A stretch of 64,000 nucleotides of DNA from the human T2T-CHM13v2.0 reference genome, Homo sapiens: the NCBI RefSeq assembly GCF_009914755.1, contig NC_060944.1; one strand, 5' to 3'. Position numbers and translations under genes: made by a program. This document shows, one piece after another, positions 39,863-47,107 of this stretch; position 1 is the first letter of the stretch; the number at the start of each line of letters is the position of its first letter. The notes beneath the pieces were generated by a model that was given only the letters and a program-made list of their open reading frames with translations, was not told the origin of the DNA and made no database searches.

Positions 39863-39967
39863 TCCCAGAGGACCCAGGACATCTCTCAGCGGGACTTGGT
39901 ACCTGAGCCTGGAGCAGCCGCAGGCTTGGAAGTGTTCACTCAGAAAAGCCTCGCAGCATCTCCTGAG
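39863..39967 (+). CDS. EPB41L1: Putative alternative exon A, SQRTQDISQRDLVPEPGAAAGLEVFTQKSLAASPE (35 aa)
   Basis: Very long polypyrimidine tract (39760-39860) + CTGCAG|, open phase 0-0, weak GAG|GTTACT donor. Confidence 0.6.
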
Positions 39968-40302
39968 GTTACTGTCTTCACCTTCCTGTGCCCCTTCCTC
40001 CTGCCCACCCAGAACCACCCTCTGTGGTCTTAAGAAAACCCTTTCTCTGGGGTGAGGGGAATGTACCAGATTCTGCCAAGCAGTTGGAAGCAATGGGTAA
40101 CCCATGCTGTCTCCATGCTGTGATAAGGAAATGTCCCCATCCCAGAGATCCATAAAGGGCCAGCCCCTCCCTCATCCATTGTTTCTCAGGAGGGACAGGA
40201 CTGCAACCATTCTGGGAAGACAGAACAGCCTGCATTGCCTTTGGCCTCGAAGGAGAGGCAGGAATGATCTCCCTCTTTCAGGTCCTGGTGAGGCAGGTGA
40301 CT

Positions 40303-40434
40303 CTAGAGGCAGGCCCTGACTTCTATGCTTAGGGTCAGGGGTCATGCTAGAGGCAGGCTCTGACTTCCATGCTTAGGGTCAGGGGTCATGCTAGAAGCAG
40401 GCTCTGACTTCTATGCTTAGGGTCAGGGGTCATG
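40303..40434. repeat. Minisatellite, 3x44 bp
   Basis: CTAGAGGCAGGCYCTGACTTCYATGCTTAGGGTCAGGGGTCATG units starting at 40303, 40347 and 40391. Confidence 0.96.
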
Positions 40435-41501
40435 GCACCCAAATGCCTTCTGCCTTAAGGTCTTTTCTCTGTTCAGAAGCCTGAATGGTCTAGCAGTGGT
40501 TAGTTAGGGCACGACATTCCAGGCATCTCCGGCCTGCGTCTTCTCTGAACTCCCCTGGAGCTTGGGCCCATCAAGGAGGCAGGCAAAAGTGGACATCTTT
40601 CTCTAAGGAGTATCCTTAGGGTTGTAGAGAGATTGGTCAGGCAAGTGTTTGAAATGAGGAGGCCATTGCTTCTATGCCCAGGGCGGCAGCAAGTGGAGGG
40701 CTCTTTGAACTTCCTGTGGCCCTTCATGGATGCTGGGCATAGAATCCAGGCCCAGGCAGGAGGCTGTGCTCCCTCCTCTGATGGGATTTTATGGACTATC
40801 AGGGTTGGAAGCTACTGAGCGATCATCTGGGCAGAACTTTCTTCCCCAATATCTGCCGCTCCCCTGTTGATGTATGCTCTCCTCTGAGGGCCTGTACCTT
40901 TCTCCATTCTCAGAGAAAACTTCTTTAGCTGCTGCAAACGTGCTGGAACTTTAAGAAAGACATAAATGAGCTACATAAGTGATAAAACATAAGTCATACT
41001 TCTACTCTATGAATTTTTCCTCAATCTAAAGAACAAAACTATCCGCACACTCTCTTGAGGGAAATCGGACAAGAGTCAACAGCATACCAAGGACAGGGCT
41101 AGAGAGATGCCCTGGACACAGAGATGCTCCTGTGACCAAGGACAGGTGCCCATTTGGGGAGCAGAGCCCACAACCTGCACCCCGCCCCCGCATCATTCTC
41201 CTGCAAATGTCCATCCAGCTCTTCCACAGCAGGCACTTTTGCTGTCCTTGGCGGCAGCCCATTAACTATTGGGAAGTTTTCGTGTTGAATTGAAATCTGC
41301 CTTTTCAAATTAGCAGCCTGTAGGTCTCATTCTGCCCGCTGGTGCCCGCTACCGCTCTGCATCCTCCTCCAGGCCAGCCCTTCGGAGACTTGAACACCTC
41401 CCCTTCCCTAGAACACTTCACTCTCTTCCCACTTTCTCCCAGGAAATGGTTTCTGGAGGGCCCCTTACCCTGGACCCCCTCCTCGTATAAAGGGCAGGCC
41501 T

Positions 41502-41820
41502 GGCTGGGCATGGTGGCTCACGCCTGTAATTCCAGCACTTTGGGAGACTGAGTTGGGTGGATCACCTGAGGTCAGGAGTTCGAGACCAGCCTGGCCAAAA
41601 TGGTGAAACCCTGTCTCTACTAAAAATACAAATAATAATAATAATAATAATAATAAGCTGGGCGTGGTGGCGCGTGCCTGTAATCCTAGCTACTGGGGAG
41701 GCTGAGGCAGGAGAATCGCTTGAACTCGGGAGGCGGCTGTCAGTGAGGCAAGATCACGCCTCTGCACTCCAGCCTGGAAGACAGAGCAAAACTCCGTCTC
41801 AAAAAAAAAAAAAAAAAAAA
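41502..41820 (+). mobile_element. Alu with (AAT)n expansion in the linker
   Basis: Alu consensus. Confidence 0.92.
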
Positions 41821-43638: not shown

Positions 43639-44547
43639 CTCTGGTGCCTTTGATGCACGATGATGCTTAGATCTTTACCTCTCTCCCTTCCTTGATGCAT
43701 TCTATTGAGTTCTTTTCTGCTCTTTCTATGGGTTTTGTTAGAATTAGAATGGGCCCTGGTATTTGTTTCTTTTAGATTGAACACCACAGTGTTCAAGCTG
43801 TTTAAGCCATTGTGGTGCCTGGCACTAACGTGGTCATGTGGTATCTCCATGACTACTATGCTTTCTTCCCAGAAGCCCTTGTAGAAAGGTTCGATTTCAG
43901 GCTGTGGCCTGTGGAACTTAATGCATCCCTTCAATTTGCCATTAGGTCACAGTTGGCACCCATATTCCATGGTTGTGAAATAAGTTAGCAAAGATCTCCG
44001 GCCTCAAAAATCAGGCTTTCTTTTCCTGACTCTGTCTTCTACTAACAGTGACCTTGGGCAAGTCACTGTCCATCTCTAGACCTGTTTCCTCATTTACACA
44101 ATATGGAAATGAGACTGGATAACATTGTAAGAGTACTTTTGACTCTAACATTCAAAGACTCCATGTGATGGAAATGACTTTCCCCTCTGACGGTGGCAGT
44201 TATGTTATTAAAAGAGGAAGAGGAAGGGTCCTGGCCCATCTGTGGATCTCCATTTCCCCATGGCTGACATGGGAAGGGCATAAGACCCCATCCCATTTTA
44301 TCAAGTTGGGGGCAGTGGTTGAGGAAAATTGGTCAATAATTTATCAAGTGCCTGATGGGAAGAGGGACCTTGATGAGAATGGCTGGCACGTCATGCCTTC
44401 CTCTCCCCAGCCAGTTCTGGGGATGTGCTGTCCCAAAGTCAAACATTTCAGTGGTAGATTGGTCCCCTCTTACAAAGGGAAAAACTCACCCATTCTTCAG
44501 GTACCTGATATTTCATGTTAACTCTTCTTGCTCCAATTGAAACACAG

Positions 44548-46479
44548 GGTTCAGAGCATTGGGTATTTATAGAAAGAGAGTACACTAGGCCAGAAGAGCT
44601 CGGTCTCCTAAAAGTGACCACCATGCAGCAGGAAGAAAGGCAGGCAGGCCTTGCTGGTATCCTTGCCAACGGCAGACTCTCCAAGGTAGACGTTCTGGTG
44701 GACAAGTTCAAAGTGGAAGTGGCCACAGAAGAAATGGTGGGAAACAGAAGAGCAAACACCCAGCAACAAGGAAAAATGATTGCAAGTCCTGAAGACTTTG
44801 AGTCAGTGGGGGAGGAAGGCCCCTGGATCAGGGAAAGCCCAGGAGGGGCTGCCCTGGCTTCCGGCCGCACATTGGCAGAAAAGCTCCTCGAGGGCTCTGA
44901 GCTCAGGGCAGACACCAGAGAGGCAACCATCAGGAACCGCTGCATGTCAGATGGTCAGCCGGAGGGCCAGACAGAGCTGAGGAAGGGGCTGGAGGAGCCT
45001 CACACTTGTGGGAGACCCACTGCTCCAGGGACCAGGCCAGCAGAGGTGGACGTCCTCTCTCCAGCCTCCGACAAGGGAGGACTCCAGTCGTTTCTATTGG
45101 ATCCAGCCCACGCAGAAGCCAGAGCTGAGTTGAGCAATGAAACTGATACTTCCTTTGCAGAGAGGAGCTTCTATTTAAATTATGAAGAAAAAGACTCAGA
45201 AGACCAAGTCCTCCCTCCACCCCTGGAGGAGAGAAAAGGGCGCCTGGATGCCCCTCCCGGAGGTGAGCCCAGGCCGACGCTGAATTCCTTAGACCTGAGG
45301 GTTTCTGCTGCTGCTTCCAGCAGGAGCAAGGACGAAGCCCACATGACTTCCCCAAAGGAAGGGGCAGGGACCCCCAAGAACCATGGAGGACCTGGTGACC
45401 TGAAGGGATCTCCCGCAGGACAGACGTTTGCTGAAGGCTGGGAAGATGCCCAGTGGGGAGTGGAAGGAGAGTTTCCCCACCTGACAGCCAGCGCAGCCCG
45501 AGAGGAAGGGACCCCCGTGAGTGGAGATTTGCTGGGAAAGGCTGAGGAAAGTCCCACAGAGGAACTGAAGAAGCACCCTCCTCACAGAGGACAGGGCGTG
45601 CATCCCGACCCCCAGGCCTGCGCCCTTCCTCGGGCCATCCCTCTGAATGTCAGGAAGCCAGTCAAACCAGACAGAGGCAACTTCCCACCCAAAGAGAGGG
45701 GAGTGGTTCCCACCCAGAAAGGAGGGGCTGAGCTGAAGGACCGCGAGGCTTCAGCATTTCTTCACATGGAGGTGATCATTCCCCTGCCAGCCTCCCCTGG
45801 TCATTCTGAGGACCTGGCAGCTCTGGAGGAAGCTTCTCCAAGCCCAACCTCCCATGGGTCAGGGGAGCCTTCGGAGCTCAGGGAGCCCTTTCTTAGACAT
45901 GTCCATCTTTCGAAAGCCAGCCCAGAGCCCAAGGACCAAGTAGGGTTTGTGGTGTCCCCTGCCACAGGAGGTGAGCGCAGGCCTCCTCCCATCACCAGCA
46001 GAAAGCCCAGAGTAGTCCCTGAAGAAGCTGAGGGGCGCATACCTCTGGGGTTTGGGTTCCCTTCAGGGAAGCGAAGGGAGATGACCTCTTTCCAGGCTGG
46101 GGACCAAGAGGGCTCCCTAGAAGATATTAGCAAGACCTCAGTGGCCAACAAAATTCGGATATTTGAGACCCACGGAGCTGAAACTCGCCGAATGAGTGAG
46201 GGTGAAGCAAGGTCCCTTCCAAATGACGTATCTTCAGAGGCACCCGTGGGACAAGCAGAGCAGCAGCGGAGTACGCTCTCAGACCTGGGCTTCGCCCAAC
46301 TCCAGCCCCCAGGGGACTTTGCCAGCCCCAAAGCCACACATTCCACAGTGATACCTCTGGCTACCAGACACTTCAGGGAGGACACTTCTGCATCCTACCA
46401 GGAAGCACACACGGAACTAGAGCCCGTGTCCCCCAATTCAGGCTGTGAAACCACGCTGGCAGAAGCTACTGGAACTGGG
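44548..46479 (+). CDS. EPB41L1: Putative alternative giant exon B (1932 nt, 644 aa; alternative donor at 46491 gives 648 aa), GSEHWVFIEREY...EATGTG
   Basis: 680-aa uninterrupted non-repeat ORF; ACACAG| acceptor in phase 0; in-frame donors GGG|GTAACT and CGC|GTGAGC; E/P/G/S/A-rich disordered composition. Confidence 0.8.
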
Positions 46480-46999
46480 GTAACTGGCCGCGTGAGCCCC
46501 CGCCCCCACCGCTGCTCCCCGCCCATGGGGGCTGGCCGCATGCTCTGTAGTTTTTAGAAGCATGTTTCAGTGGCCCCTCGTCATTTCTGCAATCAGAGGC
46601 TGCTTATCCATCCCTGTGAGTTTTTTCCCTAAACGGGCCTGGGTGTAGCTCAGGCTGAATGATGGGCTTCTCTGCTTGGCCCATGTTAGCTTGGCCACAA
46701 AGACCCTCAGCTTTTGGTGTGACCTGGTGCCCAGAGGGTCACACAACCCCCATGGAGAAGGTGGCGCCACCACCAGCAAATGACACACCTGCTTTGCCTT
46801 GCCGCTCATACCCGCTGGGTTCCTGCCTACCTTGCTTGGCTTGTCCAGCGATCTTTCTTCATCCTTTCCCATCCCTGGTTCTCCCGCCTTGGGAAAGTTG
46901 ACAGTCCAGAGGTTTCCATCCTTCACTTCTGGTTCCCTCTCAGTCCCAGTGCCAAGTTTCTTTCTGCCTCCTTAAGACTAACTGTCTTCTCTAATCCAG

Positions 47000-47107
47000 A
47001 ACAAATCCGGAGATGCGGTCAGGGAAGAGAAGCGCTCCACCAACTTAGCAGCCAACACCCCTGGGAAGGGGGGGCGCCTGAGATTTGCCAGCCCCTCGGG
47101 CCCTCAG
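47000..47107 (+). CDS. EPB41L1: Putative alternative exon C, NKSGDAVREEKRSTNLAANTPGKGGRLRFASPSGPQ (36 aa)
   Basis: ACTAAC branch-point-like motif at ~46977, TCCAG| acceptor, open phase 0-0, purine-rich body, weak CAG|GTCTCT donor. Confidence 0.6.

What the first reader, a model, noticed from the sequence alone, without database searches (positions are those of the whole stretch)
39863..47107. Hidden three-exon cassette with a ~1.93-kb giant exon predicts a ~1,600-aa 'giant 4.1N'
Seen: between the SAB-like exon (ends 37031) and the U3 exon (starts 48187) lie three open phase-0 segments with valid splice signals: 39863-39967 (35 aa), 44548-46479/46491 (644/648 aa) and 47000-47107 (36 aa). A 680-codon stop-free, repeat-free ORF inside an intron is very unlikely without selection. 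Including all three adds 715-719 aa to the 881-aa protein. Established: ANK2 and ANK3, in the same spectrin-based membrane skeleton, use giant disordered exons for axonal isoforms. I also recall a long rodent brain 4.1N isoform, so this may be known but under-studied in human. Inference: a tissue-restricted, elongated 4.1N with a disordered spacer between FERM/SAB and the C-terminal domain that binds AMPA receptor and IP3R.
Basis: partly seen in the sequence, partly recalled or inferred. Interest (0 to 1): 0.85.

Follow-up and report, generated by a model that had tools for sequence, protein, structure and literature searches.

The report
Annotated giant alternative exon of 4.1N
Three alternative coding exons of the human EPB41L1 (4.1N) gene, one of them 1.9 kb long, are real and old, but they are already in the public gene annotation as a 1,538-residue isoform whose function has hardly been studied.

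Summary
Exons 39863-39967, 44548-46479 and 47000-47107 are phase 0, flanked by AG/GT, free of masked repeats, and code for 35, 644 and 36 aa. The 682-codon stop-free run is the longest in the window. The next is 262 codons, and 400 simulated 64-kb sequences reached at most 444.

The cassette is not hidden. RefSeq NM_001433605.1, a BestRefSeq record and 1 of 55 EPB41L1 transcripts, carries all three exons and codes for 1,538 aa.

Full-length giant orthologue models of 1,440-1,664 aa exist in placentals, marsupials and a monotreme. Birds, a turtle, a gecko and a snake also have the exon. A mouse cDNA-derived protein joins the SAB exon directly to it.

It is the least conserved exon of the gene and matches no Pfam or PDB entry. 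Short motif islands are nevertheless kept across amniotes.

Best reading: a regulated cassette that inserts a ~77-kDa, mostly unstructured, motif-bearing linker between the SAB domain and U3/CTD.

Novelty: already known. Interest: low to moderate.

The parts
36849..37031 (+). Upstream constitutive exon holding the SAB domain. It is the splice donor for the cassette.
   Evidence: RefSeq exon, phase 0. The SAB Pfam match is at residues 493-544 of the 1,596-aa gibbon orthologue. The exon is 97-100% identical in 13 placental models.
39863..39967 (+). Cassette exon 1: 35 aa, alternative coding exon.
   Evidence: AG/GT flanked, phase 0. Present in NM_001433605.1. Identity is 71-97% in 12 of the 13 placental models and 51-66% in marsupials and echidna; one chimpanzee model skips it. 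Its C-terminal half (FTQKSL.SSPE) is kept in songbird and turtle models. It is skipped in the mouse cDNA-derived P0008 and in the two peafowl entries and the owlet-nightjar model.
44515..44547 (+). Last 33 nt of the intron: a likely branch point (ttaac) and a short pyrimidine tract. It also reads as ATG plus 10 in-frame codons.
   Evidence: Sequence. The translation MLTLLAPIETQ recurs with few changes at the start of models from placentals, marsupials, birds, a gecko and a snake. ATG context is weak, tatttcATGt. CpG o/e is 0.10-0.13 and no promoter is annotated.
44548..46479 (+). Giant alternative coding exon: 1,932 nt, 644 aa.
   Evidence: It has 10 of 18 pyrimidines upstream of the acceptor, the second lowest of 23 acceptors. 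No Pfam match, no PDB sequence match and no second copy in the human genome.
44548..44592 (+). Island 1, aa 1-15: the exon-start motif GSEHWVFIER. It contains W-V-F-I, which fits the core LIR pattern.
   Evidence: G1 S2 E3 H4 W5 V6 R10 P15 are invariant in 60 mammalian rows. The motif is present in 9 of 10 sauropsid and early-branching mammal models searched; the stork model starts downstream of it. The W and I/L/V anchors are kept in 59 of 59 other mammals.
44680..44805 (+). Islands 2-3, aa 45-86: SKVDVLVDKFKVEVATEE and KMIASPEDFES.
   Evidence: Conservation profile. MIASPEDFES is kept in birds, gecko and snake, whereas the SKVD..ATEE part is mammalian only.
45073..45186 (+). Islands 4-5, aa 176-213: KGGLQSFLLDP and SFAERSFYLNYE.
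   Evidence: The acidic T/S-rich run followed by AER..Y-L is recognisable in sauropsids.
46105..46176 (+). Island 6, aa 520-543: QEGSLEDISKTSVANKIRIFETHG, the best conserved stretch.
   Evidence: The block aa 521-540 has 96% mean identity over 59 mammals. E525 D526 S528 K529 S531 V532 A533 K535 I536 F539 E540 are invariant. SVA[NS]KI[KR][IM]FE was found in 9 of the 10 models searched; the turtle model lacks it.
46429..46467 (+). Island 7, aa 628-640: SPNSGCETTLAEA, near the exon end.
   Evidence: SPDSGCE.TLAEA is kept in echidna, birds, gecko and snake. L637 is invariant in mammals.
46480..46491 (+). A 12-nt extension to a second in-frame donor (CGC|gtgagc). Not used in human RefSeq.
   Evidence: Of 59 mammalian models, at least 17 end with a '+4 aa' form (such as TGGTGH|NKS) and at least 21 with the short form; 14 could not be parsed by my pattern.
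46538..46564 (+). Two GCATG pentamers, 59 and 81 nt downstream of the giant exon's donor. This is a weak hint of Rbfox-type control.
   Evidence: The window average is one GCATG per 865 nt, so about 0.35 are expected in 300 nt.
47000..47107 (+). Cassette exon 3: 36 aa, alternative coding exon.
   Evidence: AG/GT flanked, phase 0. Present in NM_001433605.1. Identity is 67-94% in 11 of the 13 placental models and 25-28% in marsupials and echidna; it is skipped in one chimpanzee and one bat model. It is weakly recognisable in birds and snake.
48187..48597 (+). Downstream U3 exon, the splice acceptor for the cassette.
   Evidence: RefSeq exon, phase 0. Five GCATG lie within 300 nt downstream.

Best explanation
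The three segments are genuine alternative coding exons of EPB41L1, and they are already annotated. When included, they insert 715 aa (about 77 kDa, pI about 5.3) between the spectrin-actin-binding domain and the U3/C-terminal domain. The result is a giant 4.1N: 1,538 aa in the RefSeq isoform, about 169 kDa calculated. All three exons are phase 0, so any combination keeps the frame. Orthologue models and a mouse cDNA show several combinations. The insert behaves like a fast-evolving, length-variable, probably unstructured linker. It carries six or seven short motifs that have been kept since the amniote ancestor. I infer that it does two things. It lengthens the tether between the membrane- and spectrin-binding half (FERM, FA, SAB) and the C-terminal domain. 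It also adds docking sites for partners that the 881-aa form cannot bind. Inclusion is probably regulated rather than constitutive. Shown here: exon structure, frame, presence in a known RefSeq transcript, conservation pattern, and absence of paralogous copies. Inferred: disorder, the docking role, regulated or tissue-specific inclusion, and that the protein is made.
For: Exon anatomy and frame. Known transcript NM_001433605.1 (BestRefSeq, 1,538 aa) holds all three exons. The open frame is far beyond chance. Orthologues, search 1: 12 hits among proteins of 354-1,127 aa, including mouse Q8C8P2, which has FERM+SAB spliced straight onto the giant exon. Search 2: 121 hits, 120 listed, all mammals; most carry FERM, SAB and CTD Pfam domains at 1,440-1,664 aa and include an echidna and marsupials. 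Search 3: 21 hits, including 10 bird clusters, a turtle, a gecko and a snake. Both anchor motifs (GSEHWV.IER and SVA[NS]KI..FE) are in 8 of 10 models checked, and each motif is in 9 of 10. Per-exon identity: the giant exon is 54-74% identical in non-ape placentals and 33-38% in marsupials and echidna, against 100% for the five FERM-core and FA exons (26668-29787). Conservation is concentrated in islands. The distance between the two anchor motifs varies: 530 aa in human, 558-571 in opossum and echidna, 740-786 in three birds and two squamates. Composition: 64% disorder-promoting residues against 47% in the FERM region, and mean hydropathy just on the disordered side of the Uversky line. No Pfam family and no PDB sequence match. 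Weak splice signals fit regulated use: 10 of 18 pyrimidines at the giant-exon acceptor, and donors matching 6 of 9 consensus positions for all three exons. Domain order in the gibbon 1,596-aa orthologue is FERM 101-381, FA 385-427, SAB 493-544, CTD 1504-1582, which puts the cassette (557-1271) between SAB and CTD.
Against: I saw no expression or protein evidence for the human isoform. No reads were available, supplements were closed, and I could not open the RefSeq record's evidence. Only 1 of 55 annotated human transcripts includes the cassette. Nearly all orthologues are computer models, which by construction show open frames, so they cannot reveal frameshifts. The mouse cDNA-derived protein stops inside the giant exon at 834 aa, so it does not prove a full-length giant form. 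[quoted passage not shown] The disorder call is weak: the Uversky margin is small (0.415 against 0.430) and many 41-aa windows fall on the folded side. I had no orthologous DNA, so dN/dS was not computed.
Confidence: 0.85

Rival explanations
1. The main product of the giant exon is a FERM-less protein that starts inside the gene. Transcription or translation would begin just upstream of the exon, at ATG 44515, giving giant exon + U3 + CTD without the FERM, FA and SAB domains.
For: The 11 codons from ATG 44515 to the acceptor are open. Their translation is nearly unchanged from human to birds, gecko and snake. At least 10 orthologue models carry only the CTD Pfam domain and start at or near this ATG: Myotis, Phodopus, Sminthopsis, Numida, Porphyrio, Oenanthe, Ciconia, Chlamydotis, Gekko and Erythrolamprus.
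Against: None of the 55 human RefSeq transcripts starts there. No promoter, CAGE cluster or CpG island is present: CpG o/e is 0.10-0.13 over 44000-44799. The ATG context is poor. The same 33 nt hold a branch-point-like ttaac, the pyrimidine tract and the AG, which alone explain the conservation. Gene predictors must start at an ATG, so its presence in models is selected for. Models from the stork, the bustard and Sminthopsis start at other methionines. The mouse cDNA-derived protein and more than 100 full-length models splice the exon to upstream exons.
Confidence: 0.08
2. The cassette is spliced in only as rare noise, or the long isoform is an annotation relic. The open frame would persist without a protein-level function.
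For: Only 1 of 55 human transcripts has it. It is the least conserved exon of the gene. The 4.1N literature I could read does not describe it.
Against: A 682-codon open frame is far outside chance. The frame and short motif islands have been kept in placentals, marsupials, a monotreme, birds, a turtle and squamates. 33 columns are invariant across 60 mammalian rows. The flanking small exons are also conserved.
Confidence: 0.05
3. The giant ORF is a separate gene nested in an EPB41L1 intron. Several genome annotations label it 'uncharacterized protein LOC...'.
For: Stand-alone models of 728-795 aa exist in manatee, elephant, Miniopterus, wallaby and bilby. They start at the intronic ATG and have no 4.1 domains.
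Against: These models read through the donor into unrelated, non-conserved tails. The exon has an AG acceptor exactly where conservation begins and a GT donor where it ends. It is in phase with both neighbouring exons. It is spliced to SAB in a mouse cDNA-derived protein and within a known human transcript.
Confidence: 0.02

Closest known systems
Human EPB41L1 RefSeq transcript NM_001433605.1 (1,538-aa isoform) and the 'band 4.1-like protein 1' long isoforms modelled in other mammals
   Same: It is the same object. Identical exon coordinates 39863-39967, 44548-46479 and 47000-47107 are coding exons of this transcript. Orthologue models of 1,440-1,664 aa carry the same insert between SAB and CTD.
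   Different: The RefSeq isoform skips 57575-57661 and 58460-58543 and uses acceptor 53059. The donor at 46491 is not in human RefSeq.
Rat 'brain 4.1' long form (Yamakawa et al. [quoted passage not shown]
   Same: From memory only: that paper described a long and a short rat brain 4.1N cDNA. A rat 1,552-aa entry with the giant exon is among the hits (P0119).
   Different: I saw only the citation, in the reference list of PMC3180372. The paper itself is not held, so I could not check what it says about the long form.
Giant ankyrin isoforms (ANK2 and ANK3, 440 and 480 kDa)
   Same: One very long alternative exon is inserted between conserved domains of a spectrin-skeleton adaptor. PMC5135030 (abstract in the listing) describes the 'unusually long exon' of giant ankyrin G. 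Giant ankyrins carry LIR motifs (PMC7615515, passages), and the 4.1N exon starts with an invariant W-V-F-I.
   Different: No sequence relationship was detected: no Pfam hit and no other human locus. The 4.1N exon is about 1.9 kb, much shorter than I recall the ankyrin exons to be. Neuron-specific or axonal use of the 4.1N exon was not shown here.
'Big tau' exon 4a and other long neuronal insert exons
   Same: An alternative, poorly conserved insert exon enlarges a cytoskeletal protein. PMC9755724 (abstract in the listing) treats Big tau exon 4a variants.
   Different: Analogy only. The protein family is unrelated, and expression of the 4.1N insert was not examined.
Alternative exon of the paralogue EPB41L3 (4.1B) at chr18:5558759-5559547, minus strand
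   Same: It lies between the FERM-C and CTD exons on the gene strand. The open frame begins GTEDWVIVDR, which aligns residue 1 to residue 1 with GSEHWVFIER.
   Different: It is only 263 codons. The alignment covers 27 residues, 33% identical, E = 0.10 for a single comparison. A profile of the giant exon does not detect it. I could not see its annotation status. No open frame above 263 codons was found in the matching parts of EPB41L3 and EPB41L2, and none of 200 or more in EPB41.

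Membership tests
Alternative coding exon of EPB41L1 (protein 4.1N) | Canonical AG acceptor and GT donor, and a frame compatible with the neighbouring exons | tested here: met
   All three exons are AG/GT flanked, start in phase 0 and have lengths divisible by 3.
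Alternative coding exon of EPB41L1 (protein 4.1N) | Present in a known (NM_) transcript | tested here: met
   NM_001433605.1, source BestRefSeq, 23 exons, 1,538 aa. It is 1 of 55 transcripts. I could not see the evidence behind the record.
Alternative coding exon of EPB41L1 (protein 4.1N) | Open frame and sequence kept in orthologues | tested here: met
   121 mammalian clusters and sauropsid hits. See the per-exon identities and the islands. Caveat: these are mostly gene models, and I had no orthologous DNA.
Alternative coding exon of EPB41L1 (protein 4.1N) | Spliced to neighbouring exons in sequenced cDNA | tested here: inconclusive
   Mouse Q8C8P2 (P0008, labelled 'unnamed protein product') joins SAB to the giant exon but ends at 834 aa inside it. 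No human reads were available.
Alternative coding exon of EPB41L1 (protein 4.1N) | Protein product detected | not testable with these tools
   No proteomics access, and supplements were closed. One paper reports a very faint 165-kDa band in mouse brain (PMC7550591, passages).
Giant-exon isoforms of membrane-skeleton adaptors (the giant ankyrin kind) | A single very long alternative exon inserted between conserved domains | tested here: met
   1,932 nt between SAB (493-544) and CTD (1504-1582).
Giant-exon isoforms of membrane-skeleton adaptors (the giant ankyrin kind) | The insert is intrinsically disordered | tested here: inconclusive
   Composition leans towards disorder, and there is no Pfam or PDB match.
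Giant-exon isoforms of membrane-skeleton adaptors (the giant ankyrin kind) | Neuron-specific or axonal expression | not testable with these tools
   No expression data. The only hint is two GCATG downstream of the donor.
Giant-exon isoforms of membrane-skeleton adaptors (the giant ankyrin kind) | Sequence homology to the ankyrin giant exons | tested here: not met
   The whole-genome six-frame search with the exon and with two of its islands finds only the exon itself, plus three chance-level hits with stops.
LIR / GABARAP-interaction motif | Core [W/F/Y]-x-x-[L/I/V]; GIM core (W/F)-(V/I)-x-V (PMC7615515) | tested here: inconclusive
   W5-V-F-I8 fits the core LIR and is kept in 59 of 59 mammals. 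It misses the GIM by having I where V is expected. The residue before W is H, not acidic. The bare pattern is common, with four matches in the exon. Binding was not testable.
Xin actin-binding repeat (Pfam PF08043) | Match to the Pfam model | tested here: not met
   No Pfam family at E <= 1 in the 644 aa. The Xin-like cluster in the Atlas scored 0.80, below the 0.9 that the tool treats as more than a lead.

The most novel reading that the evidence does not exclude
Giant 4.1N is a functionally distinct scaffold that has been kept since the amniote ancestor and has never been studied as such. Its insert would be a motif array rather than a passive spacer. The invariant W-V-F-I at the first residues of the giant exon could act as an Atg8-family (GABARAP/LC3) binding site, as the LIRs of giant ankyrins do. 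4.1B has a positionally matching W-V-I-V at the start of an open frame. The invariant SVANKIRIFE helix-like island could recruit a cytoskeletal partner. Together these would give a 4.1-based counterpart of the giant ankyrin system in excitable cells.
Probability: 0.12. Interest if true: 0.65.

Novelty: already known. Interest (0 to 1): 0.3.

Why it matters
4.1N links AMPA receptors, IP3 receptors and other membrane proteins to the spectrin-actin skeleton. Work on it has used the 881-aa form. Of the two 4.1N papers I read in passages, the review names only the 135- and 100-kDa forms, and the knockout paper adds a 95-kDa form and a faint 165-kDa band. If the 1,538-aa isoform is made in particular neurons or other excitable cells, three things follow. 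Knockouts, antibodies and variant interpretation for EPB41L1 would need to take account of about 2.1 kb of extra coding sequence. The conserved islands would be ready-made candidates for new binding partners. Missense or truncating variants in 39863-47107 would stop being 'deep intronic' for the common transcript. As a discovery it adds little, because the exons are already annotated. The useful output is the motif map, the evolutionary depth and the list of tests.

Tried and rejected
Paralogous giant exons. I searched the human genome in six frames with the whole exon and with two islands. Only the exon itself came back, plus three hits at E 0.7-1.7 with internal stops that I took for chance. 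One search ran with a stricter filter, so weak matches may be missing. I then located the paralogues with a FERM-C and a CTD exon; the SAB exon found only itself. I fetched the intervals of EPB41L3, EPB41L2 and EPB41 and listed open frames. The longest on the gene strand were 263 codons in EPB41L3 and 253 in EPB41L2, and none of 200 or more in EPB41. tblastn and a profile built from 60 mammalian rows found nothing significant there.

Domains and structures. Pfam found nothing in the giant and 35-aa exons, and only a below-cutoff 13.5-bit chance match in the 36-aa exon. PDB sequences gave 0 matches at E <= 10. The Atlas gave only leads of 0.77-0.83, and the tool says such scores arise by chance a third of the time. 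They were disordered cytoskeletal proteins (tankyrase-1-binding protein, CEFIP, Xin-like, CRACD-like, MLIP, Shroom1), and I rejected them as evidence.

Internal promoter. There is no CpG island and no annotated promoter or CAGE cluster upstream of the giant exon.

Low repeat content as a sign of special constraint. Rejected: 4.7% of 37031-48187 is masked, but the whole window is only 15% masked and many of its introns have none.

RNA families. None reached gathering score in 37031-48187 on either strand.

Deeper taxa.

Literature. EPB41L1 + 'giant exon': 0 papers. 4.1N + '165 kDa': 1 paper. KIAA0338 / 4.1N / 'type I brain 4.1': 1 paper, irrelevant. Epb41l1 with large, long or neuron-specific exon or long isoform: only one of the 20 listed papers mentions EPB41L1, and it concerns exon 14 in blood cells. 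Epb41l1 + long-read + exon + inclusion + neurons: 2 papers, irrelevant by title and abstract. Walensky title words: 0. Not held: Yamakawa 1999, Parra 2004 and Walensky 1999. Supplementary tables, which might list peptides or phosphosites from the cassette, were closed, and I did not ask for them.

Full report
What is there. The window is part of EPB41L1 (protein 4.1N). They are 39863-39967 (105 nt, 35 aa), 44548-46479 (1,932 nt, 644 aa) and 47000-47107 (108 nt, 36 aa). Each follows an AG, precedes a GT, starts in phase 0 and has a length divisible by three. The ORF list shows 44515..46557 as 680 aa. The stop-free run is 44509-46554, 682 codons. A second in-frame GT lies at 46491. None of the exons overlaps a masked repeat or a tandem repeat.

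Is it more than chance? Yes. The 682 codons are the longest stop-free run in any frame of the 64-kb window, and the next longest are 262, 258 and 239. I ran 200 first-order Markov simulations of 64 kb with the window's composition and 200 more with the exon's own GC-richer composition. The longest runs were 278 and 444 codons. The other two forward frames of the exon hold 26 and 25 stops.

It is not hidden. The annotation table lists 55 EPB41L1 mRNAs. One of them, NM_001433605.1 (source BestRefSeq, not Gnomon), contains all three exons and codes for 1,538 aa. Compared with the 881-aa select transcript NM_012156.2, it adds the 715-aa cassette, skips 57575-57661 and 58460-58543, and uses the acceptor at 53059 instead of 53056. 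That gives 881 + 715 - 57 - 1 = 1,538. A gibbon model of 1,596 aa has that form.

Relatives. The first protein search used the 644 aa and could see only proteins of 354-1,127 aa. It gave 12 hits. These included manatee and elephant (64 and 63% identity), two bats (59%), a hamster (55%) and three marsupials (35-37%). They also included two peafowl entries (45% over 15% of the query) and mouse Q8C8P2. In that mouse protein, FERM, FA and SAB are joined directly to the giant exon with the 35-aa exon skipped, and it ends at 834 aa inside the exon.

The second search used a dunnart protein, residues 1-700, and saw proteins of 572-1,820 aa. It gave 121 hits, 120 of them listed, and all were mammals. 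Most are 1,440-1,664 aa and carry the FERM, FA, SAB and CTD Pfam domains. They include an echidna, five marsupial genera, a rat entry of 1,552 aa and ape entries named 'EPB41L1 isoform 2' and 'isoform 15'.

The third search used the peafowl protein, residues 541-784, and saw proteins of 431-1,372 aa. It gave 21 hits: ten bird clusters, a loggerhead turtle, a gecko and a snake, with mammals for the rest. I checked ten models: five birds, the turtle, two squamates, an opossum and an echidna. The exon-start motif GSEHWV.IER was in 9 (the stork model starts downstream of it). The motif SVA[NS]KI[KR][IM]FE was also in 9 (the turtle model lacks it). Both were in 8. The exon therefore dates at least to the amniote ancestor. 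I saw no amphibian or fish sequence, but the length limits of the searches mean this says little.

Pattern of conservation. Against 15 mammals, the five FERM-core and FA exons from 26668 to 29787 are 100% identical. The giant exon is 54-74% identical in non-ape placentals and 33-38% in opossum, Tasmanian devil and echidna. It is the least conserved exon of the gene. The 35-aa exon is 71-97% identical in the 12 placental models that contain it and 51-66% in marsupials and echidna; one chimpanzee model skips it. The 36-aa exon is 67-94% in the 11 placental models that contain it and 25-28% in marsupials and echidna; a chimpanzee and a bat model skip it.

Within the giant exon, 33 columns are invariant in 60 mammalian rows. 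Conservation is concentrated in islands at aa 1-15, 45-62, 76-86, 176-186, 202-213 and 520-543. The last one contains SVANKIRIFE, and its block aa 521-540 has 96% mean identity.

In an 11-species amniote alignment the following survive (and for the 35-aa exon):
- the C-terminal half of the 35-aa exon (FTQKSL.SSPE)
- GSEHWVFIER
- MIASPEDFES
- an acidic S/T run followed by AER..Y-L
- SVA[NS]KI..FE
- SPDSGCE.TLAEA

The sequence between the islands is unalignable and differs in length. The two anchor motifs are 530 aa apart in human, 558-571 in opossum and echidna, and 740-786 in three birds and two squamates.

What kind of sequence it is. There is no Pfam family at E <= 1, no PDB sequence match at E <= 10 and no Rfam family on either strand. 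The exon has 64% disorder-promoting residues against 47% for the FERM region. It has 9.5% proline and 11.8% glutamate, 15 S/T-P sites and a pI of 5.2. Its mean hydropathy of 0.415 lies just below the Uversky boundary of 0.430. This leans towards disorder but does not prove it, since many 41-aa windows fall on the folded side. The calculated mass of the in-window 1,536 aa is 169 kDa, of which the cassette adds 76.7 kDa.

Place in the protein. In the 1,596-aa gibbon orthologue, Pfam puts FERM at 101-381, FA at 385-427, SAB at 493-544 and CTD at 1504-1582. The cassette occupies 557-1271 of the human long form.

Splicing signals. The giant exon's acceptor has 10 pyrimidines in the 18 bases upstream, the second lowest of 23 acceptors in the gene. 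The lowest, with 9, belongs to another alternative exon. All three cassette donors match 6 of 9 consensus positions. Two GCATG pentamers lie 59 and 81 nt downstream of the donor, where 0.35 would be expected in 300 nt. From established knowledge, downstream (U)GCAUG favours Rbfox-dependent inclusion in neurons and muscle, so this is a weak hint of tissue control and no more. At the exon's 3' end, orthologue models split into a short form and a form 4 aa longer. At least 21 have the short form, at least 17 have the longer one, and 14 of the 59 were not parsed by my pattern.

Paralogues. The exon has no second copy in the human genome (one search ran with a stricter filter). Between the FERM-C and last CTD exons of EPB41L3, EPB41L2 and EPB41, the longest gene-strand open frames are 263 codons, 253 codons and under 200 codons. 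A profile of the giant exon finds nothing there. One detail stands out. The 263-codon frame in EPB41L3 begins GTEDWVIVDR and aligns from its first residue with the first residue of the 4.1N exon (27 aa, 33% identity, E = 0.10). This may be an old shared exon-start motif, or it may be chance.

How it most likely works. Shown: a frame-neutral, three-exon cassette in a known transcript, kept open in amniotes, with motif islands in a variable matrix. Inferred: when the cassette is included, 4.1N gains a long flexible linker. This linker increases the reach between the FERM/SAB half and the C-terminal domain and offers new docking motifs. Inclusion is regulated.

One specific idea cannot be tested here. 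The invariant W-V-F-I at residues 5-8 fits the core LIR pattern [W/F/Y]-x-x-[L/I/V] and nearly fits the GABARAP-interaction core (W/F)-(V/I)-x-V (PMC7615515, passages). The same review cites LIR peptides from giant ankyrins. Only four core-LIR matches occur in the human exon, and this one is kept in 59 of 59 other mammals. Against the idea, the pattern is short and common, the residue before W is histidine rather than acidic, and conservation alone does not identify the partner.

Rivals. The first is a FERM-less product starting at the intronic ATG 44515. It is suggested by the conservation of the 11 upstream codons down to squamates and by at least 10 CTD-only models. However, the same 33 nt hold the branch point, the pyrimidine tract and the AG. 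The ATG context is weak, there is no CpG island or annotated promoter, and no human transcript starts there. The second rival, splicing noise, does not fit amniote-wide motif conservation. The third, a nested separate gene, rests on stand-alone models whose tails read into the intron and are not conserved.

Known or new. The exons and the isoform are in RefSeq, and long isoforms are modelled in over 100 mammalian clusters, so the finding is already known. From memory, a long rat brain form was cloned in 1999. I saw only that paper's citation and could not read it. What seems thin is functional work. A 2021 review (passages) mentions only the 135- and 100-kDa forms. [quoted passage not shown] No paper in the searchable library pairs EPB41L1 with 'giant exon'. 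Most subscription papers and all supplements were out of reach, so this is not proof of absence.

Verdict. Novelty: already known. Interest is about 0.3. The value of this work lies in the motif map, the amniote age of the exon and a concrete list of tests.

Noticed in passing
window 44515-44547: The last 33 nt of the intron before the giant exon read as ATG plus 10 in-frame codons (MLTLLAPIETQ). This translation is almost unchanged in models from placentals, marsupials, birds, a gecko and a snake. It may be a strongly constrained branch point and pyrimidine tract of a regulated exon, or an alternative start.
   Followed up: partly
L007:4759-5547 minus strand (chr18:5558759-5559547, EPB41L3): A 263-codon open frame on the EPB41L3 gene strand, between its FERM-C and CTD exons, begins GTEDWVIVDR. 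It aligns from residue 1 with the start of the 4.1N giant exon (E = 0.10) and has no Pfam match. This may be a shared exon-start motif containing W-V-I-V.
   Followed up: partly
window 48598-48897: Five GCATG pentamers, two of them TGCATG (at 48714 and 48887), lie within 300 nt downstream of the U3 exon 48187-48597. The window average is one per 865 nt. This looks like an Rbfox-type signature for that exon.
   Followed up: no
window 46479 / 46491: Two in-frame GT donors lie 12 nt apart. Human RefSeq uses the first, and many orthologue models imply the second (+4 aa). The second matches the donor consensus equally well (6 of 9 positions).
   Followed up: partly
window 40303-40434: A 44-bp unit is repeated three times (95% matches) in the intron between the 35-aa exon and the giant exon.
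   Followed up: no
window 38818-38867: RefSeq lists an enhancer ('active region_17805') in the intron just upstream of the 35-aa exon.
   Followed up: no
P0097 (Myotis brandtii, 1,414 aa): This protein model combines AAR2 Pfam domains with the giant exon and the 4.1 CTD. It is probably a chimeric gene model that merges EPB41L1 with a neighbouring gene.
   Followed up: no
P0008 (mouse Q8C8P2, 834 aa): This cDNA-derived protein enters the giant exon from the SAB exon. It leaves the conserved sequence after about 275 exon residues and stops five residues later, which suggests an internal splice or an early 3' end within the exon in mouse.
   Followed up: no
P0119 (rat, 1,552 aa), against window exons 17622-17664 and 21264-21339: The rat entry is only 21-23% identical to human over two short FERM exons that are 96-100% identical in the other 14 mammals. 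This is probably a frame error in that entry.
   Followed up: no
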